Shown here: piece after piece, positions 1 through 13,574 of the stretch
Position numbering within the stretch: position 1 is the stretch's first letter
Layout: every line of letters begins with the position of its first letter
Virus record (IMG/VR): IMGVR_UViG_2778261570_000018
Location: 1 to 13,722 of that record
Source of the DNA: a virus
Taxonomy: Duplodnaviria; Heunggongvirae; Uroviricota; Caudoviricetes
Length of the DNA: 13,722 nt
Direction: 5' to 3' (one strand)
Notes under the pieces: model-generated
What the model was told of the DNA's origin: nothing
The model's input: the letters and a program-made list of their open reading frames with translations, nothing else
The model's database searches: none
Program-made: the position numbers and the translations under genes

Positions 1-215
1 GTGCTGCGGATGATTTCCTGTCGGTGATTAACCCGGAATCGCTGGTGATCAAACAAGGCTTTGCTGAACCGTCGCTGAAAGAAGCGGTAGCGGGTAAAGC
101 ATTCCAGTTTGAGCGTGAAGGTTATTTCTGCCTCGACAGCCGCCATTCTACGGCGGAAAAACCGGTATTTAACCGCACCGTTGGGCTGCGTGATACCTGG
201 GCGAAGTTAGGTTAA
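1..215 (+). CDS. glnS: 3' end of glutaminyl-tRNA synthetase gene (5'-truncated by window edge; reading frame starts at nt 3)
   Basis: Frame is open from the window start to TAA at 213-215. Translation ...[70 protein letters not shown] matches my recollection of the C-terminal region of enterobacterial GlnRS. The listed ORF start at 24 is an internal GTG, not a real start. Confidence 0.7.
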
Positions 216-6142: not shown

Positions 6143-6445
6143 ATGACCAAAAAAATTAACATAAAGGATTTCAGGGATGCGTGGCTTGATGATTTTTTTG
6201 AATTTTCAACACCACATAGAAAGATACCTCCTGATATTCATATGACATTGTCACGGAAGTTGGACATTATCAATGCCGCAACTACCTGTAATGATTTAAG
6301 ATCACCACCAGGTAATCGGTATGAGGAACTGTCAGGGAAGCTAAATGGCTATTCATCAGTAAGGGTGAATAAGCAATATAGGTTAATTTTTAAGTGGGTT
6401 AACGGAAAGGCCGAGGACTTGTATCTCGACCCTCACAAATACTAA
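6143..6445 (+). CDS. higB: HigB-family toxin (Rts1 HigB / killer-protein type, RelE/ParE superfamily)
   Basis: 100 aa. C-terminal pattern EELSGKLNGYSSVRVNKQYRLIFKWVNGKAEDLYLDPHKY parallels Rts1 HigB (...LKGDREGYWSITVRANWRITFQFINGD..L..EDYH as recalled). Toxin-first gene order with a downstream HTH antitoxin. Confidence 0.8.
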   Translation: MTKKINIKDFRDAWLDDFFEFSTPHRKIPPDIHMTLSRKLDIINAATTCNDLRSPPGNRYEELSGKLNGYSSVRVNKQYRLIFKWVNGKAEDLYLDPHKY

Positions 6446-6515
6446 AACAGATACCCGGTTACGAACCGGGTTCTGACCAGAGTCCACTTAATACGCACGC
6501 TAGTAAGGGCAAAAA

Positions 6516-6854
6516 ATGAAACAGGCAACCAGAAAACCGACGACCGTAGGTGATATCCTGCTGTACGAATACCTGGAGCCGTTAGAGCTGAAGATCAACG
6601 AGTTAGCAGAAATACTTCATGTTCATCGTAACACCGTAAGTGCTCTTGTTAATAATAATCGTAAGCTAACGATGGATATGGCATATCGCCTGGCAAAAGC
6701 ATTCGATACTTCTGTAGATTTTTGGATTAATCTTCAGACCGCAGTAGATCTGTGGGAAGTCGAAAATGATATGCGCGTTCAGGAAGAGTTAAGTCGTATC
6801 AATACTGCTGAAAAATTTATTTCTCAGCGGAACCTGAATAAAAAAGCAGCCTGA
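6516..6854 (+). CDS. higA: HigA-family antitoxin (XRE-type HTH, addiction-module antidote)
   Basis: 112 aa. GDILLYEYLEPLELKINELAEILHVHRNTVSALVNNNRKLTMDMAYRLAKAFDTSVDFWINLQ matches the HigA antidote HTH pattern. TAAGGG is 6 nt upstream of ATG 6516. Confidence 0.8.
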   Translation: MKQATRKPTTVGDILLYEYLEPLELKINELAEILHVHRNTVSALVNNNRKLTMDMAYRLAKAFDTSVDFWINLQTAVDLWEVENDMRVQEELSRINTAEKFISQRNLNKKAA

Positions 6855-6873
6855 TATAGTAAAACACATACAA

Positions 6874-6905
6874 AAAGCCCACTTAGCAAGTGGGCTTTCC
6901 TTTGT
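6874..6905 (+). terminator. Intrinsic terminator after higBA-1
   Basis: Stem aaagcccact (6874-6883), loop tagca, stem agtgggcttt (6889-6898), then cctttgtaatt. Confidence 0.55.
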
Positions 6906-6910
6906 AATTA

Positions 6911-7270
6911 ATGAACATTAAACCCATCCGTACAGAACAAGATTATGAGGCCGCACTGCGTGCGGTCGAACCGATGTTCGATAACGAACCGGAAATGAAT
7001 ACTCCGGAAGGTGATTTCTTTGAGGTTATGAGTCTTCTCATTGAGGAGTACGAGAAAAAACATTACCCAATTGAGCCACCATCACCTATTGAGGCCATTA
7101 AATTCCGTATGGAACAGCAAGGGCTGACCGTGAAGGATCTGGAACCGGCAATTGGTAAGTCAAACCGTGTTTACGAAGTGCTTAATGGGACACGAAATTT
7201 GACGTTACCTATGATTCGTCGTTTACATGCCCAGTTTGGTATTCCACTGGAAAGCCTGGTTGGCGTTTGA
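6911..7270 (+). CDS. Stand-alone HigA-like antitoxin/regulator of the E. coli YgjM (K-12 HigA) type, C-terminal HTH
   Basis: 119 aa. C-terminal GLTVKDLEPAIGKSNRVYEVLNGTRNLTLPMIRRLHAQFGIPLESL parallels K-12 HigA (GLTLSDLPEIGSKSMVSRVLSGKRKLTLEHAKKLATRFGISPALF as recalled). N-terminal EQDYEAALRAVEPMF parallels EEQYTQALELVDHLL. No cognate toxin gene is adjacent. Confidence 0.7.
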   Translation: MNIKPIRTEQDYEAALRAVEPMFDNEPEMNTPEGDFFEVMSLLIEEYEKKHYPIEPPSPIEAIKFRMEQQGLTVKDLEPAIGKSNRVYEVLNGTRNLTLPMIRRLHAQFGIPLESLVGV

Positions 7271-7299: not shown

Positions 7300-7333
7300 A
7301 TAAAAAATAGATACTAGAAATTTGGTAGCATAT

Positions 7334-8113
7334 ATGAGTACAGATTCATCAGTAAAGAAGACATCTGAATCAGATAAAGAAAATGAGTCCGTTGTTGATT
7401 CCGTCAAGAATACAATGGAATATGTTATAAAAGACAAAGTATTTAATAAGCTTTTTGCATATATTTTTATATCTTTTCTGGTTGTTAACTGGAGAGATAT
7501 ATTAATTTTGTTCAAATCAAAAGAAGATGTTCTATATACTCTGTCAATAGTTTTTACCGGTGAAAAAATACAATTTCTTGATGGCGAGATTTTACCTCCT
7601 TGGTTTGCCCACTTTTTCTTGCCGTTTTTCTATGGTGTGATTGCGTCGATTGTGGCACCAGTAATTACACTTGCGGTATCTTGCATTACAACTAAGGTGT
7701 ACTATAAAATAAAAATTTTGGACAATAAAACAGACGAAAACGAGAAAGAGAAATTAGCAAAAAGAGCCAAGAAAAGAGCTGAGCGTGAAATAGAGGCTAG
7801 CTATAGCCAACAAAAGCTGGATGAAAGAAAAAAAGAACTGGAAGACATTTTAAACAAAATAGAAGATGAAAAAGAAAAATATGATAAAATGAAAGAAAGG
7901 TTTGATGATGCCATAACGCTTACATATAAAAATATTCACATTTTGCCTACTCTGTATGAGAATAGGAAATGTAAAATTGAAACTCCGCAGGATTTATATG
8001 ATTTTATTGCAGCAATAAAGAAAACATCATTCTATAGTACTGATTTTAATGAATTGTTCTCTGATATTTCTCGATTGTATTCTGAAATGCAAACTGATTT
8101 ATCAGAAAAGTGA
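7334..8113 (+). CDS. Hypothetical membrane protein with two predicted TM helices and a long charged coiled-coil segment (AT-rich, likely foreign gene)
   Basis: 259 aa from ATG 7334 (the ORF-track start at 7322 is TTG). Hydrophobic segments LFAYIFISFLVVNW and FFLPFFYGVIASIVAPVITLAVSCI, then a K/E-rich heptad-like stretch (NEKEKLAKRAKKRAEREIEASYSQQKLDERKKELEDILNKIEDEKEKYDKMKERF). Coding region is visibly AT-rich compared with its flanks. Confidence 0.6.
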   Translation: MSTDSSVKKTSESDKENESVVDSVKNTMEYVIKDKVFNKLFAYIFISFLVVNWRDILILFKSKEDVLYTLSIVFTGEKIQFLDGEILPPWFAHFFLPFFYGVIASIVAPVITLAVSCITTKVYYKIKILDNKTDENEKEKLAKRAKKRAEREIEASYSQQKLDERKKELEDILNKIEDEKEKYDKMKERFDDAITLTYKNIHILPTLYENRKCKIETPQDLYDFIAAIKKTSFYSTDFNELFSDISRLYSEMQTDLSEK

Positions 8114-9756: not shown

Positions 9757-10038
9757 TTATGCGTGGAAAAATAATGGACGGATGTTTGGGCGAGCGGTTT
9801 GCGAAGCAACCCAAAGCTCATACTGAGATTGCATACCGGTCCACATTTCGGCACTGGTTCCAAGAGCGGACTCCAGACGAAGTGCCATATCAGCAGAAAT
9901 GCCTGCTTTTTCGTTCAGAATTCGGGAAAGTGCCGTGCGAGTAATGCCTAATGCAGCAGCGGCGTCTGTGACTGACATGTCTCCCAAATATTCACGAAGA
10001 ACCGCGCCAGGATGCGCGGGATTATGCATACGACTCAT
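9757..10038 (-). CDS. higA: HigA-family antitoxin (XRE-type HTH), second module
   Basis: [72 protein letters not shown] parallels Rts1 HigA (HPGE...SRLL..K......[21 protein letters not shown] as recalled). ATG 10038 is preferred, with GAGGAA overlapping the higB-2 stop; the ORF-track start at 10050 is TTG. Confidence 0.8.
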
Positions 10039-10046
10039 AGTGTTCC

Positions 10047-10328
10047 TCAATGATAATCCTGATAGTCAACTAGAATTGCGTCTTCTCCTTCAAATCGGAA
10101 GGTAAGTCGCCAGTTACCGTTTACCGATATTGCCCAGTGACCTTTAAGGTCCGCCCCCTTTAGAGGGTGCAATTCCCATCCAGGCGCAGACATATCGTCC
10201 GGGCGTTTAGCTGTATTAAGAGCAGTCAATTGAATGCGTAGCTTAACCGCATGTTTGGCCTGAATGCCTGCGGTTGAACCTGTCTTGAAAAAGCGTTCAA
10301 GCCCTTTATGGCGAAATGACTTAATCAA
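10047..10328 (-). CDS. higB: HigB-family toxin (Rts1 HigB type), second module; likely TTG start at 10328
   Basis: Translation from TTG 10328 gives [18 protein letters not shown]...[43 protein letters not shown], closely paralleling Rts1 HigB (MIKSFKHKGLKLLFEKG...HPLKGDREGYWSITVRANWRITFQFINGDAYILNYEDYH as recalled). GGATGG lies 7 nt upstream. The ORF-track start at 10391 adds a non-conserved 21-aa extension. Confidence 0.8.
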
Positions 10329-10354
10329 AATAATTCCATCCGTGCGCGTAACCT

Positions 10355-10391
10355 GTGTATATACACTACACGCAGAGGGAGCGAAATGCAA
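10355..10391 (-). promoter_or_regulatory. Candidate higBA-2 promoter with a 12-bp perfect palindrome operator
   Basis: On the minus strand: TTGCAT (plus 10386-10391), 17-bp spacer, TAGTGT (plus 10363-10368). Perfect palindrome GTGTATATACAC (10355-10366) overlaps the -10 and predicted transcription start. Confidence 0.4.
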
Positions 10392-10664
10392 GCACTATCC
10401 GTATAGACAGAGTTTCTTCGCCGCCCTGGAATTTATTGACTGTCAACAAGTGACTTTCATTAATCTTAAGGCATGGACCAGCTCGATAGTGAGCTGGGTG
10501 TTATTTACCGATCGAATGGATTCGAAAAGATGAATATTTTTAATAAGCTGATTGATTTATTGAATAAATTCATTAGTGCTTCTTTAACTCAGCAGGTATC
10601 CACGTCAGTGTTTTTGTTACTCTTCTACCTGGTATTGAGGGAGTTAACAAAGCTACTAATGTGA

Positions 10665-11318
10665 TCAAAGTATCACGGTATCTTCATCAACTTCTTTCCC
10701 AGCCAGTGACTTTGGCTGGGAACTGCCTGCTTTAACTTTTTCATGCCCAATAATGGAAAGGAACGAAGTGAGTATGCCTGTTTTTTGCTCTTTCTCGACT
10801 GTACCGGTCATCTGCTCTACGTAATCCGCACTGGCAACGTTGTGGTATACGGTCGCGTAGCAACACAGGATCATCAGAATATGCTCCGGCCTGATATCCT
10901 GCCAGTTCACCCTGTAGACTTCTTCTCCGTTACCGTTGTATTCGGTATCAACGATAGAGTCGGGGATTTCGAAAGCACCTTTGTTATTTTGCGGCAGGGA
11001 TAATAGCTTCTGGAGTTTTAACTCTCTGTATCTTTCCATCCCGACGATGATTGCTGCTCTGCCATCGGCATGACGGGTCTTGAGAGTCACCTGGCTTGCT
11101 CCGGTGCCAGCGGAGATCGTTGGCGTAATTTCGTCTACCAGTACCTTAAATTTGCTTTTCCGCAGGGCTGCTATAGCTGGAGGAATTTTTTGCTTTTGCT
11201 CCAATGCTGACGCGGGAAGGGGTTTTACTTCGTTAATAATGAGAGCACCGTCTTTCAGTATTGCAGTGAGCATTTGAGGCTTGCTGGTGGTCAGGCTGAA
11301 TATTGCGATCTTTTCCAT
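10665..11318 (-). CDS. Hypothetical protein, about 217 aa, unknown function (start ATG 11318)
   Basis: ORF with GGAGAAAGGA immediately upstream of ATG 11318. The ORF-track N-terminal extension to 11360 runs into the terminator hairpin and is not credible. No family recognised. Confidence 0.55.
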   Translation of the reverse strand: MEKIAIFSLTTSKPQMLTAILKDGALIINEVKPLPASALEQKQKIPPAIAALRKSKFKVLVDEITPTISAGTGASQVTLKTRHADGRAAIIVGMERYRELKLQKLLSLPQNNKGAFEIPDSIVDTEYNGNGEEVYRVNWQDIRPEHILMILCCYATVYHNVASADYVEQMTGTVEKEQKTGILTSFLSIIGHEKVKAGSSQPKSLAGKEVDEDTVIL

Positions 11319-11344
11319 TGTCCTTTCTCCACGGATGACGGATA

Positions 11345-11370
11345 CAAAAAAAGGCCGCACATGGCGGCCT
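11345..11370 (-). terminator. Canonical rho-independent terminator on the minus strand, immediately upstream of the RBS of the 217-aa gene
   Basis: Minus-strand RNA: stem aggccgc, loop caugu, stem gcggccu, then seven U (plus 11352-11370 hairpin, A-run 11346-11352). Lies about 25 nt upstream of ATG 11318. Confidence 0.65.
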
Positions 11371-11601
11371 GCTTTGGCGTTATGACTCCCTACCGCGCTT
11401 CGGCTGAAAGTTAATCGTCAAAAGAACCTTCAACGGGAGCCGTTAGCGCGATGGATTATGTGCAGTTTGTGATTTCCAAAATAGTGTCAACTACTTTTTG
11501 TGGATTTTATTTTTTGTCCGAAATTTGGCCTAAATCATGTTGATTTGGCTGATTATTTTTATAACATAAAACTTCATTTTGTTTACATGAAGGACGGTGT
11601 A

Positions 11602-12216
11602 GTGAAGTTAAGGGTTTTAGGGACCGCGCTCGCGGCTATGTTGGGATGCGTATCTGTTAATACTGCCAATGCAACTGCGTTACCTGCAAAGTATTGGGCT
11701 GGTGTGAAAGTGTTGCGGAACGCTGAAAAAGGCAATACAGCTGATGATATTTTCAAGTTTTGCCAAAAAGAAAATATCCCTCTGCACCCGGTTGAGCCGT
11801 ACTTTACAGGAAAGAATGATTTCTGTGTGTTTGCGTATACCGCAGACCAAACAGATAAGGCTATACGCAAGACAGGGTATTCTACTCAAGACACTATGGC
11901 GTCCTTAAGTAAAAACTGGTTGCAGTTTGAGGTTTACCGTAGTGAAGGAATGGGAGAGCTATTGCAGCCACTGTATATGCTGGCGTTAGTTCCGGAAGGG
12001 CAGCAGTTCCTTATTCGAAAAGGAATGCTTCGGAAAAGCGATGTAACCGGATTCAATAACACGATGGAGCTTGAACGCTCAATGAAGCAAAAGCAAGCGC
12101 CTAAGCAGCCAACAGCCGAATGTATTAGCAGCGAGATACAAAAGGCATTAAGCGAGCAGCCTTACATTGATCGTGGTGTGGCGGAAATGGCTGCCAAAAT
12201 GAAGTGTTCCAATTAA
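11602..12216 (+). CDS. Hypothetical secreted/periplasmic protein with N-terminal signal peptide (start GTG 11602; alternative ATG 11587)
   Basis: AAGGA (11590-11594) is 7 nt upstream of GTG 11602. N-terminus MKLRVLGTALAAMLGCVSVNTANA is a typical signal peptide (ANA cleavage site or a weak lipobox). Mature part contains several Cys. The ORF-track start at 11500 lacks an RBS. Confidence 0.55.
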   Translation: MKLRVLGTALAAMLGCVSVNTANATALPAKYWAGVKVLRNAEKGNTADDIFKFCQKENIPLHPVEPYFTGKNDFCVFAYTADQTDKAIRKTGYSTQDTMASLSKNWLQFEVYRSEGMGELLQPLYMLALVPEGQQFLIRKGMLRKSDVTGFNNTMELERSMKQKQAPKQPTAECISSEIQKALSEQPYIDRGVAEMAAKMKCSN

Positions 12217-12259
12217 CGTCAAATAGAATAACAAGATAGTAAATTTTGGAGTTAATGAA

Positions 12260-13081
12260 ATGTTCTTTATGAAAAATGGAAAAAGATTTTCCGCAACAAT
12301 GCTTGCTACTATTGTCGCTCTTTTCGTTCCCACATTCACCTTTGCTTATGATTTTAGCAAAATTGACTGCAATGCCCCTAAAACCAGGCAGATGTTAATC
12401 GATGATTATAATGAACTACTCAAGGACGATCAGGAAGCAATCACTGTAATTGATGCTTATAATCAGATTAATGAAATAAGCGAAAAAAGTAAGCTCCAAT
12501 GTTTAGGCACGTATGAGTTCTCAGATGGAAGTGCGCTTAGAGTTAGATATAAGTTATATTTAAATAGCCTCGGCACACCCATATATGAATTTGCTCCAGT
12601 TGAGGAATTAACGCAGGATGATGTAAGCGCATCTATTCAAAATATCCCTGCAACCACAGCGAGTAGGACTGGGGGGAATGAAGAAACGTATGCCTGCAAG
12701 GTGGCTGTAACTTACAAGGGGGAGCGTTCTAACTATATGGGGGATTCCGGAACATGGGATCGTGTGATTACTGACTATGGCACTTATTTTTCATGGGATT
12801 TACCACGCGGAAACCGAGGCAACAGCACAGGTCAGGATGCTTTTAGTGGCATGGACGAATCAAAGCCTGTATTAGAAAATCAGCTAGTGAGAAAGGAAAC
12901 TGAAAAAGATGGTAGCGTGGTTGATGAGTTTAGGACAGAAGTGAGTTATGGAGATAAACAACCGGTACATAAGTTTGTATATGCCCGTAGAATAAAACCT
13001 ACAGGAACGAGAGAATATTATGTCACTGATTTGACGGACAAGCGGGCATTTATGTTTCTGAATTGCCAGCAAGATTCGTAA
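12260..13081 (+). CDS. Hypothetical secreted protein with N-terminal signal peptide
   Basis: GGAG is 8 nt upstream of ATG 12260. N-terminus MFFMKNGKRFSATMLATIVALFVPTFTFA. AT-rich coding region, 43 nt downstream of the preceding gene (likely co-transcribed). Confidence 0.6.
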   Translation: MFFMKNGKRFSATMLATIVALFVPTFTFAYDFSKIDCNAPKTRQMLIDDYNELLKDDQEAITVIDAYNQINEISEKSKLQCLGTYEFSDGSALRVRYKLYLNSLGTPIYEFAPVEELTQDDVSASIQNIPATTASRTGGNEETYACKVAVTYKGERSNYMGDSGTWDRVITDYGTYFSWDLPRGNRGNSTGQDAFSGMDESKPVLENQLVRKETEKDGSVVDEFRTEVSYGDKQPVHKFVYARRIKPTGTREYYVTDLTDKRAFMFLNCQQDS

Positions 13082-13086
13082 TTGAT

Positions 13087-13124
13087 AAAGCAGGCTTAAC
13101 GACTAAGCCTGCTTTTTGAATTTT
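13087..13124 (+). terminator. Intrinsic terminator after the secreted-protein operon (also abuts the stop of the convergent membrane-protein gene)
   Basis: 11-bp perfect stem aaagcaggctt (13087-13097) / aagcctgcttt (13105-13115), 7-nt loop, then tttttgaatttt. Confidence 0.6.
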
Positions 13125-13473
13125 ACTCGGTAATAGTTTTGCAGTTGTTTTGGTTTAAGACCAATCCAAGTTTGCTGGCGGCCAACTCATTTTCTGTGTG
13201 AGAGCCAGCAAATACAAATCCTTGTTTTATCTTATTTACGGTGAAATATTTATTGTATATAAATGCCCAGACAAGTGAAGCTACCCAAGGACCAATTCCT
13301 GCAGTGAGGAATGCCAGGATTAGCATCACAACGAACACCCCGATGAAAGTTATAAAGTCTTTCCTGAACAAAGCCGGGAAGGCACCAAAAAAGAACGTAG
13401 TCCAGGAGAATCCATAAAAGCCTGAGATGGACTCGCCTGTCCGAGGATTTTCTAAGTTAATTTTAGTAGCCAA
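13123..13473 (-). CDS. Small inner-membrane protein (116 aa, two predicted TM segments), TTG start
   Basis: Hydrophobic stretches FYGFSWTTFFFGAFPALF and FIGVFVVMLILAFLTAGIGPWVASLVWAFIY. AAAGGA is 9 nt upstream of TTG 13473. No in-frame ATG is available near the N-terminus. Confidence 0.55.
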   Translation of the reverse strand: MATKINLENPRTGESISGFYGFSWTTFFFGAFPALFRKDFITFIGVFVVMLILAFLTAGIGPWVASLVWAFIYNKYFTVNKIKQGFVFAGSHTENELAASKLGLVLNQNNCKTITE

Positions 13474-13530
13474 AGTTATTCATCCTTTAACGTAAAAAAA
13501 CAAATAATTATAAAGCTGTGTGAGTGTGCT

Positions 13531-13559
13531 ATTTTACTAATCTACACTATGTTATGCAA
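13531..13559 (-). promoter_or_regulatory. Sigma70-like promoter for the membrane-protein gene
   Basis: On the minus strand: TTGCAT (plus 13554-13559), 17-bp spacer, TAAAAT (plus 13531-13536). About 50 nt upstream of the TTG start. Confidence 0.5.
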
Positions 13560-13574
13560 TTTATTGGTATCATG

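What the first reader, a model, noticed from the sequence alone, without database searches (positions are those of the whole stretch)
11587..13081. AT-rich two-gene operon encoding signal-peptide proteins of unknown function
Both products have clear N-terminal signal peptides and several cysteines (likely periplasmic disulfides). The genes are AT-rich and closed by a strong terminator, which is typical of lysogenic-conversion or moron cargo such as superinfection exclusion, immunity or virulence-associated periplasmic proteins. No family was recognised.
Basis: partly seen in the sequence, partly recalled or inferred. Interest (0 to 1): 0.45.

Follow-up and report, generated by a model that had tools for sequence, protein, structure and literature searches.

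The report
SimB-like secreted-protein cassette of D6-like phage-plasmid
The two genes are real and encode exported proteins in a variable accessory locus of a P1/D6-type phage-plasmid; one carries a domain homologous to phage P1's SimB ("superimmunity" operon), so the pair most likely blocks entry of related phages, though no experiment has tested this.

Summary
The observation largely holds. Two co-oriented genes (ORF1 11602/11587-12216; ORF2 12260-13081) each have a Sec-type signal peptide and paired conserved cysteines, and they end at a strong terminator (13087-13115). Only ORF2 is AT-rich (40.5% GC); ORF1 (45.6%) matches the window (45.2%).

The window is a D6-like, P1-related phage-plasmid of E. 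coli. ORF2 is not family-less. Residues 31-116 are 51% identical to the whole mature SimB of phage P1. They are fused to a roughly 130-aa C-terminal domain that no library describes, with the invariant motif WDLPxGNRGNSTGQD. That domain also occurs alone or behind other N-domains. ORF1 is an all-helical orphan found only in Escherichia, Shigella and Salmonella plasmids. Phage D6 itself lost it through a 588-bp deletion.

Both genes are under purifying selection (dN/dS 0.1-0.2). The locus, between mat and the immI region, is occupied in essentially every D6-like plasmid, but by alternative cassettes. Of 100 E. coli plasmids, 57 carry the ORF1 type, 45 the ORF2 type and only 3 both.

The best reading is a Sim-like periplasmic superinfection-exclusion cassette. 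This function is inferred at about 0.45. There is no SimC homolog, and SimB-like proteins also occur as chromosomal genes. I rate it a new variant of a known kind, of moderate interest.

The parts
11540..11567 (+). Putative weak sigma-70 promoter for ORF1-ORF2: TTGATT-N16-TAACAT (inferred only)
   Evidence: Read from the sequence. The TTG of the -35 and the TAACAT -10 are conserved in the ORF1-bearing and D6 loci (A4). It matches 8/12 consensus positions, below the scan threshold, so one search did not report it. No P1 C1-operator match anywhere in the window.
11602..12216 (+). ORF1: 204-aa exported all-helical orphan protein (209 aa if started at ATG 11587); signal peptide to 11673, predicted cleavage ANA|T
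   Evidence: signal peptide, Cys, pI 8.9; phrog_12786, unknown function; 15 clusters in 5.8e9 proteins, all Escherichia/Shigella/Salmonella; conserved Cys59/80/179/207; AF2: all-alpha, pLDDT 71; no fold match; dN/dS 0.11-0.37; GTG start conserved.
11645..12232 (+). 588-bp segment (body of ORF1) that is deleted in phage D6 and in most ORF2-bearing D6-like plasmids
   Evidence: D6 aligns to 10603-11644 and to 12233-13561. D6 orf79 begins with the remnant of the ORF1 signal peptide (VKLMVLGTALAA), fused in frame to the ORF2 leader; 97 of 100 hits cover only 67% of the query, in two pieces.
12260..12346 (+). ORF2 signal peptide (residues 1-29, predicted cleavage TFA|YDF); GGAG Shine-Dalgarno 8 nt upstream
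   Evidence: The cleavage position aligns with the mature N-terminus of P1 SimB. Fast-evolving but still hydrophobic (dN/dS 0.4-0.9).
12347..12607 (+). ORF2 N-terminal SimB-like domain (residues 30-116), one conserved Cys pair (C37, C81)
12608..12682 (+). ORF2 inter-domain linker (residues 117-141), poorly conserved and predicted disordered
   Evidence: pLDDT <50 for residues 115-140; dN/dS 0.37-0.73; alignment gaps and variation.
12683..13081 (+). ORF2 C-terminal domain (residues 142-273 plus stop): undescribed beta-rich exported domain with invariant YFSWDLPxGNRGNSTGQD and HKFVYARRIKPxGxREYYVTD motifs and a Cys146-Cys269 pair
   Evidence: invariant columns; the domain occurs alone (P0021, P0035, P0039) or behind other N-domains (P0017-P0020, P0023, P0029), with only 30 hits in 1.84e9 representatives; no Pfam, PADLOC, NCBIfam or PDB match; dN/dS 0.05-0.06.
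13087..13115 (+). Intrinsic terminator closing the operon (shared with the convergent 116-aa ORF)
   Evidence: 12-bp stem, 5-nt loop, T-rich tail; -19.4 kcal/mol, z -6.9.

Best explanation
The window is part of a D6-like (P1-related) phage-plasmid of E. coli. Between the maturation-control gene mat and the immI (icd/ant) immunity region lies a two-gene operon whose products are exported by the Sec pathway and probably stabilised by disulfides. ORF2 is a two-domain protein: a SimB-like domain (P1 superimmunity operon) joined by a flexible linker to a conserved C-terminal domain that no library describes. ORF1 is an all-helical orphan.

I propose that the operon is expressed from the plasmid prophage and acts in the periplasm, as the P1 sim operon is thought to. 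Related phages would still adsorb, but DNA delivery across the envelope would be blocked (superinfection exclusion). The shuffled domains and cassettes would set which phages are excluded.

Shown: gene reality, export signals, SimB homology, domain modularity, dispensability, and polymorphism of the locus. Inferred: expression in the lysogen, periplasmic site of action, exclusion as the phenotype, and any target.
For: Identity of the element: 98.8% identical to plasmid pF719-4 and 88-98% to phage D6, with the P1-type genes 6/24/7/25/26, mat, icd/ant and ref around it.

SimB homology: 51% identity over all of mature SimB, E 6e-26. PHROG hits are reciprocal. The D6 ortholog is annotated 'similar to P1 gene simB', and a D6-like Salmonella plasmid was reported to have simB but no simA or simC (PMC6799933).

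Shared architecture with P1 sim: simA, simB and simC are consecutive genes beside immI, and all three translated products begin with signal-peptide-like hydrophobic N-termini. simB and simC overlap by 8 nt, which suggests SimB works with a partner; here the SimB domain is covalently fused to a partner domain.

Export and disulfides.

Accessory and polymorphic nature: ORF1 is deleted in viable D6. Alternative cassettes occupy the same site. The census gives 57, 45 and 3 of 100 plasmids. Divergence is mosaic, with dS of 0.05 (mat), 0.27 (ORF2) and 0.87 (orf116) against D6. The P1 sim region is likewise one of eight hypervariable regions of P1-like plasmids (PMC9603915), and simABC are non-essential (PMC10695390).

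Sim is thought to keep superinfecting phages from injecting DNA (PMC8546580, citing Devlin 1982 and Kliem & Dreiseikelmann 1989).

Purifying selection on both folded domains shows a maintained function.
Against: No homolog of SimC is present. SimC is the only P1 sim product annotated with superimmunity itself, while SimB is annotated only as a 'putative accessory function'.

The position differs from P1. In P1 sim is upstream of and divergent from c4-icd-ant; here the operon lies downstream of and convergent with ant, next to mat.

Stand-alone SimB-like proteins occur as stable chromosomal genes outside prophages, so the domain is not tied to phage exclusion. A 41% ORF1 homolog sits alone among IS elements, an Ail/Lom gene and an M60 peptidase gene on larger plasmids.

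No match to PADLOC defence models. The promoter is weak and only inferred, and expression in the lysogen is not shown. The structure models are of low to moderate confidence (pLDDT 59 and 71) and gave no informative fold match.
Confidence: 0.45

Rival explanations
1. Host-directed lysogenic-conversion proteins. The exported proteins would modify or protect the host envelope, for example as periplasmic inhibitors of lysozymes, proteases or other hydrolases, or as stress or colonisation factors. They would benefit the carrier cell rather than exclude phages.
Confidence: 0.25
2. Accessory function in the phage's own lytic cycle, such as lysis timing, envelope remodelling for release, or virion or injection assistance. 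This would fit a gene pair embedded among tail/baseplate genes and mat.
For: The neighbours are late and morphogenetic genes (the P1 gene 6/24/7/25/26 homologs and mat). Exported phage proteins include spanins and lysis regulators.
Against: ORF1 is deleted in D6, a plaque-forming phage. Whole cassettes are swapped for unrelated ones. The operon is transcribed opposite to the flanking late genes and has its own terminator. P1 simABC are non-essential for lytic growth. There is no similarity to spanin, holin or endolysin families.
Confidence: 0.1
3. Immunity proteins against a T6SS effector or colicin, one of the first reader's suggestions.
For: Small exported disulfide-containing proteins are typical of periplasmic immunity proteins. 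Nothing more specific was found.
Against: No toxin or effector gene is adjacent in the window or in the relatives. No Pfam, NCBIfam, PADLOC or PDB-sequence hit. No structural match to immunity folds.
Confidence: 0.03

Closest known systems
SimB of phage P1 (simABC superimmunity operon; phrog_14329)
   Same: Exported small domain. 51% identity across the entire mature SimB, with both cysteines conserved. Encoded by a P1-family phage-plasmid in the neighbourhood of immI, in an operon of consecutive genes whose products all start with signal-peptide-like N-termini.
   Different: ORF2 is 273 aa, not 111: the SimB-like domain is fused to a C-terminal domain of about 130 aa. No simA or simC accompanies it. 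The operon lies next to mat, on the ant-distal side of immI and convergent with it, not divergent from c4. SimB's own function has never been shown; it is annotated 'putative accessory'.
Phage D6 orf79 (YP_009914756, 'putative superimmunity accessory function protein')
   Same: Ortholog of ORF2 (about 91% amino-acid identity) at the same locus, with the same downstream 116-aa ORF.
   Different: D6 lacks ORF1 through a 588-bp deletion. Its annotated 298-aa product starts in the remnant of ORF1's signal peptide. The window keeps the rarer two-gene state, seen in 3 of 100 E. coli D6-like plasmids.
SimC of phage P1 (the annotated superimmunity determinant)
   Same: Prophage-encoded protein of 25-30 kDa with a signal-peptide-like N-terminus, encoded next to a SimB-type gene. 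This is the function proposed here by analogy.
   Different: No detectable sequence or profile similarity to ORF1 or to the ORF2 C-domain. It belongs to a different PHROG, 14355.
Envelope-located superinfection-exclusion proteins of other phages (T4 Imm/Sp, T5 Llp, phi80/N15 Cor, P22 SieA); named from general knowledge
   Same: Small, prophage- or early-expressed proteins located in the envelope that block DNA entry or receptor use. They are accessory and variable.
   Different: No homology detected in Pfam, PHROG or PADLOC scans. Those proteins are membrane proteins or lipoproteins, whereas ORF1 and ORF2 are predicted to be soluble periplasmic proteins with no lipobox or TM segment.

Membership tests
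P1 SimB-like protein family (phrog_14329) | Significant sequence similarity over the mature SimB domain | tested here: met
   BLASTP 51% identity, E 6e-26, ORF2 residues 31-116 against SimB 28-111. phrog_14329 E 5.6e-22. P1 SimB hits the ORF2 family phrog_13054 at 2.7e-23.
P1 SimB-like protein family (phrog_14329) | N-terminal Sec signal peptide and two conserved cysteines | tested here: met
   n/h/c regions with TFA|YDF at the position of SimB's VFA|DE. C37 and C81 align with the SimB cysteines. No dedicated signal-peptide predictor was available.
P1 SimB-like protein family (phrog_14329) | Single-domain protein of about 105-120 aa | tested here: not met
   ORF2 is 273 aa with an added linker and C-terminal domain. 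It is therefore a fusion that contains the domain, not a plain SimB.
P1 sim superimmunity system (simA-simB-simC) | Presence of a SimC homolog (the annotated exclusion determinant) | tested here: not met
   BLASTP and hhalign of ORF1 and ORF2 against SimC found nothing. The same absence was reported for a D6-like Salmonella plasmid (PMC6799933).
P1 sim superimmunity system (simA-simB-simC) | Location immediately upstream of and divergent from c4-icd-ant (immI) | tested here: inconclusive
   The operon is near immI but on the other side: downstream of ant and convergent with it, separated by the 116-aa ORF and, in D6 only, a pmgF-like gene.
P1 sim superimmunity system (simA-simB-simC) | Confers exclusion of superinfecting P1-type phage after adsorption | not testable with these tools
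   Needs plating, adsorption and DNA-entry assays.
Bacterial lipoprotein | Lipobox [LVI][ASTVI][GAS]C at the end of the signal peptide | tested here: not met
   ORF1 has M-L-G-C21, which is non-canonical, and the Cys is Gly in homologs P0004-P0006. ORF2 has no Cys in its signal peptide.
T6SS / colicin immunity proteins | Adjacent cognate toxin gene and match to a known immunity family | tested here: not met
   No toxin gene in the window or the relatives. No Pfam, NCBIfam, PADLOC or PDB hits.
Known anti-phage defence systems (PADLOC-DB) | Match to a defence-system protein model | tested here: not met
   0 families at E<=1 for ORF1, ORF2, the 116-aa ORF, the alternative 130-aa protein and P1 SimC.

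The most novel reading that the evidence does not exclude
The mat-immI locus of D6-like phage-plasmids would be a modular 'exclusion-type' locus. Exported domains (SimB-like, a helical ADYG-type N-domain, the GNRG[ND]STG C-domain, the ORF1 helical protein and a 130-aa beta protein) are shuffled into alternative cassettes that split the natural population roughly 57:45. These cassettes would define mutually excluding phage groups. The undescribed GNRG[ND]STG domain would be a new periplasmic effector that intercepts the DNA-injection machinery, for example the Sit tape-measure/transglycosylase.
Probability: 0.25. Interest if true: 0.6.

Novelty: new variant of a known kind. Interest (0 to 1): 0.38.

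Why it matters
P1/D6-type phage-plasmids are common in E. coli, Shigella and Salmonella. About 100 of 5,426 complete E. coli genomes carry the D6 type, and the literature retrieved here includes P1-like phage-plasmids carrying bla(CTX-M) and mcr-1 resistance genes. What decides which phage-plasmid can enter a cell that already holds one is poorly understood. The P1 sim system has had little mechanistic study since around 1990, and SimB has no demonstrated role.

This locus shows three things. The SimB domain is a portable exported module. It is fused or paired with interchangeable partner domains. Natural D6-like plasmids fall into two main cassette classes. If the cassettes set exclusion specificity, they would be a simple marker for compatibility groups of these elements, and they would offer an experimental route into how periplasmic proteins stop phage DNA injection. 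If they do not, the finding remains a modest annotation improvement.

Tried and rejected
- Pfam, NCBIfam, PADLOC and PDB-sequence searches of ORF1 and ORF2 gave nothing above noise. The weak Pfam hits (UvdE, CIF, Lactamase_B_2; E 0.04-0.14, far below cut-offs) were rejected as chance.
- ORF1 or the ORF2 C-domain as a diverged SimC: BLASTP and hhalign were negative.
- ORF1 related to ORF2 or to the alternative helical N-domain of P0017: negative.
- The 130-aa alternative partner related to the C-domain: hhalign probability 1.6%, rejected.
- P1 C1 operator consensus in the window: 0 matches at up to 3 mismatches.
- Rfam scan: no family in or near the operon; the RefA9 hit over the terminator (E 0.82) is chance.
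- Lipoprotein reading of ORF1 Cys21: rejected.
- Positive selection: pairwise dN/dS is below 1 everywhere. Only the signal peptide and linker approach 1, so diversification comes from cassette and domain exchange, not from point substitution in the folded domains.
- The P1 genome paper (PMC523184) and the D6 genome paper (PMC5800970) could not be read.
Full report
**1. What is in the sequence**

The stated interval holds two same-strand ORFs. GTG 11602 has an AAGGA Shine-Dalgarno 7 nt upstream and is conserved in all seven related loci aligned. The ATG is missing in one of them, L017. Homologs P0002, P0003 and P0007 also begin MK[LV]R.

ORF2 (12260-13081) has GGAG 8 nt upstream. The genes are 43 nt apart, with no terminator-like site between them. 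A 12-bp-stem hairpin with a T-rich tail follows at 13087-13115; it folds at -19.4 kcal/mol, z = -6.9.

Each product starts with a positively charged n-region, a 15-17-residue hydrophobic core and a small-x-small site (ANA|T and TFA|Y). Neither has any other hydrophobic segment. The mature ORF1 has four Cys and the mature ORF2 has four Cys, all conserved in relatives. In ORF2 the pairs fall one per domain (C37/C81 and C146/C269).

The 'AT-rich' description is only half right. ORF1 is 45.6% GC, equal to the window (45.2%); ORF2 is 40.5%.

Both are genuine, constrained genes. Pairwise dN/dS is 0.11-0.37 for ORF1 and 0.15 for ORF2. Within ORF2 it is 0.05-0.11 in the two folded domains and 0.4-0.9 in the signal peptide and linker.

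**2. Where the window comes from**

The operon region (window 11400-13200) matches only plasmids of about 90 kb in E. coli. The best is pF719-4 at 98.8%. It also matches phage D6. Annotation of these records shows a P1-type phage-plasmid. The neighbours are homologs of P1 genes 6, 24, 7, 25, 26 and mat on one side, and icd, ant/Rha and ref on the other. The operon therefore lies between mat and the immI immunity region.

**3. ORF2 is a SimB-like fusion protein**

A tblastn search against phages hits P1 simB. Residues 31-116 are 51% identical (E 6e-26) to the whole mature SimB, including both cysteines. The PHROG matches are reciprocal between phrog_14329 and phrog_13054. The D6 ortholog is already annotated 'similar to P1 gene simB'. 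PMC6799933 reports a simB homolog, without simA or simC, in a D6-like Salmonella plasmid.

The architecture does not appear to have been noted in what I could read. SimB is 111 aa, whereas ORF2 continues through a variable, low-confidence linker into a conserved C-terminal domain of about 130 aa. That domain carries long invariant motifs: DYGxYFSWDLPxGNRGNSTGQD, HKFVYARRIKPxGxREYYVTD and FLNC.

A full HMM scan of 1.84 billion representatives found only 30 relatives. They fall into three groups: stand-alone SimB-like proteins (about 105-120 aa); stand-alone C-domain proteins (P0021, P0035, P0039); and the C-domain fused to other N-terminal modules (P0017-P0020, P0023, P0029). All begin with signal peptides or a membrane anchor. 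Both halves are therefore independent, shuffled, extracytoplasmic modules.

**4. ORF1 is an orphan**

**5. The locus is polymorphic**

D6 aligns to the window up to 11644 and again from 12233. It therefore carries a 588-bp deletion of the ORF1 body. That deletion leaves the first codons of ORF1's signal peptide fused in frame to the ORF2 leader, which explains the 298-aa D6 annotation.

Other D6-like plasmids carry different contents at the same site, directly after mat:
- an ADYG-type N-domain fused to the C-domain, with neither ORF1 nor the 116-aa ORF (L004);
- an ORF1 homolog (58-76% identity) followed by an unrelated exported 130-aa protein with two Cys, phrog_13864 (L013, L015, L017).

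In 5,426 complete E. coli genomes, a D6-type mat is present in 100, ORF1-family DNA in 57, ORF2-family DNA in 45, and both in only 3. Since 57+45-3 is about 99, the site is essentially always occupied, but by alternative cassettes. The window's two-gene state is rare. Because D6 retains the 5' end of ORF1, the window's state is probably closer to the ancestor of the D6 type.

Divergence is mosaic. Against D6, dS is 0.05 in mat, 0.27 in ORF2 and 0.87 in the convergent 116-aa ORF. Cassette type does not follow the adjacent mat allele: four loci whose mat is 98-99% identical at the protein level carry four different cassettes.

These are not conserved core periplasmic proteins present in all relatives.

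**6. Mechanism**

The P1 sim operon is the only characterised relative. Its three consecutive genes (simA, simB, simC) all encode products with signal-peptide-like N-termini and lie beside immI. They are non-essential (PMC10695390). They form one of eight hypervariable regions in P1-like plasmids (PMC9603915). Sim is thought to prevent superinfecting phage from injecting DNA (PMC8546580, citing Devlin 1982 and Kliem & Dreiseikelmann 1989). From my own recollection of Maillou & Dreiseikelmann 1990, which I did not check here, the active Sim protein is a Sec-processed precursor.

By homology, architecture, export, dispensability and polymorphism, the most likely role of ORF1-ORF2 is a Sim-like periplasmic block to entry of related phage DNA. 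P1 simB overlaps simC by 8 nt, and here the SimB domain is covalently joined to a different partner domain. This suggests, by inference, that the SimB module works with an interchangeable partner.

I give this 0.45, for four reasons:
- No SimC homolog is present, and SimB's own role has never been demonstrated.
- The operon is on the opposite side of immI from P1 sim.
- SimB-like proteins also exist as stable chromosomal genes in non-prophage contexts, and an ORF1 relative lies alone on larger plasmids near Ail/Lom and an M60 peptidase gene.
- Expression in the lysogen is not shown. I could identify only a weak promoter, TTGATT-N16-TAACAT at 11540-11567, whose TTG and -10 are conserved, and no P1-type C1 operator.

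The main rival (0.25) is a host-directed envelope function, such as a periplasmic inhibitor. A role in the phage's own lytic cycle (0.1) is unlikely given the D6 deletion and the cassette swaps. T6SS or colicin immunity (0.03) has no support.

**7. Novelty and verdict**

The SimB similarity of the D6 ortholog is already in GenBank and in one paper. I did not find the following described in the literature I could search:
- the two-domain nature of the protein and the new C-terminal domain family;
- the ORF1 family and its deletion in D6;
- the near-exclusive partition of D6-like plasmids between alternative exported cassettes.

I rate it a new variant of a known kind (a sim-type locus without SimC) and of moderate interest (0.38). 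It offers a useful experimental handle on phage-plasmid exclusion, but it is not a surprise to specialists and has no demonstrated phenotype.

**8. Side observation**

About 150 bp of the mat-ORF1 intergenic region (roughly 11345-11490) is nearly invariant in seven loci, even where mat has dS of 1.4-1.8. It is at least 99% identical in 82 of 121 plasmids. On the minus strand it reads as a conserved TTGACA, then a long stem-loop, then an intrinsic terminator whose T-run ends about 25 nt before the mat start codon. That leaves no room for a promoter.

The alignment shows one compensatory U-A to A-U change, shared by three sequences, and one C-G to U-G change. Several G-U pairs favour the minus strand as the transcribed one. 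No Rfam family matches. P1 has no such leader before mat. This looks like an undescribed leader, attenuator or small RNA controlling mat, and it deserves its own follow-up.

Noticed in passing
window 11345-11490, minus strand (between mat and ORF1): A near-invariant non-coding element of about 150 nt: a conserved TTGACA, a long stem-loop, then an intrinsic terminator ending about 25 nt before the mat start codon, so mat must be read through it. It stays conserved even where mat has dS 1.4-1.8, and is >=99% identical in 82 of 121 plasmids. One compensatory pair plus G-U pairs favour a minus-strand RNA. No Rfam match, and P1 has no equivalent. Possibly a leader, attenuator or sRNA controlling mat.
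   Followed up: partly
window 13123-13473, minus strand: A 116-aa basic protein with a strongly hydrophobic central region of about 40 residues (one or two TM segments), in phrog_4915 (unknown function). It is convergent with ORF2 and shares its terminator. It is present in D6 (orf80) but absent from the ADYG::C-domain locus L004. Its dS of 0.87 against D6 is far more diverged than its neighbours. It could be a second, membrane-located exclusion-type gene.
   Followed up: partly
window 7322-8113, plus strand: The most AT-rich gene in the window (31% GC, GC3 27%). It encodes a 263-aa protein, charged and repetitive in its C-terminal half, in phrog_8191 (unknown function). It is present in D6 (orf73) but absent from the otherwise 98.8%-identical pF719-4, so it behaves as an indel-type moron between a HigA-like gene and the gene 25 homolog. 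No Pfam or PADLOC family.
   Followed up: partly
window 24-215, plus strand (continues upstream in L001:1-1657): The window starts in the 3' end of a plasmid-borne glnS (glutamine-tRNA ligase) gene, so D6-like phage-plasmids carry their own GlnRS copy next to a Dam-type methyltransferase gene.
   Followed up: no
window 6143-7270 (+) and 9757-10391 (-): Two separate HigB/RelE-HigA toxin-antitoxin pairs plus an extra HigA-like antitoxin gene are interspersed among the tail and baseplate genes. The second pair (9757-10391) is present in pF719-4 but not in D6.
   Followed up: no
L002 (phage D6) 7202-8098; L001 12101-12817: Annotation artefacts. D6 orf79 (298 aa) is a chimera that starts in the remnant of the deleted ORF1 signal peptide. 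PGAP's 238-aa ORF1 in pF719-4 and the 253-256-aa versions (P0004-P0006) start far upstream of the conserved GTG/SD start.
   Followed up: yes
L013:4630-5022, L015:4786-5178, L017:4641-5087: In most ORF1-bearing D6-like plasmids the second gene is neither SimB-like nor C-domain. It is an unrelated exported 130-aa protein (mature N-terminus GNLQVKCGRFDIK..., two Cys, phrog_13864), a third cassette type at the same site.
   Followed up: partly
L010:5001-5336; L028:4001-4336: Stand-alone SimB-like proteins (P0024, P0025) are single chromosomal genes in non-prophage neighbourhoods. One lies between an ABC-transporter operon and a LysR-family regulator gene. The other lies among topoisomerase (Toprim/Topoisom_bac domains), NUDIX, CMD and rhodanese genes and is seen in 73 blocks of the collection. 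The SimB fold is therefore not phage-restricted.
   Followed up: partly
L019:5001-5606 (also L020, L021): A 41%-identical ORF1 relative (P0047) sits alone among IS elements, an Ail/Lom outer-membrane protein gene, a RepL fragment and a large M60-like peptidase gene (AcfD_helical and Peptidase_M60 domains), on 94-168-kb contigs from E. coli assemblies.
   Followed up: no
L008:2600-6100: The stand-alone C-domain protein P0021 lies in a run of at least five consecutive small lipoproteins or secreted proteins of unknown function. Some have helical C-terminal ends that look similar by eye to the ADYG-type N-domains. This may be a separated version of the same modular system.
   Followed up: no
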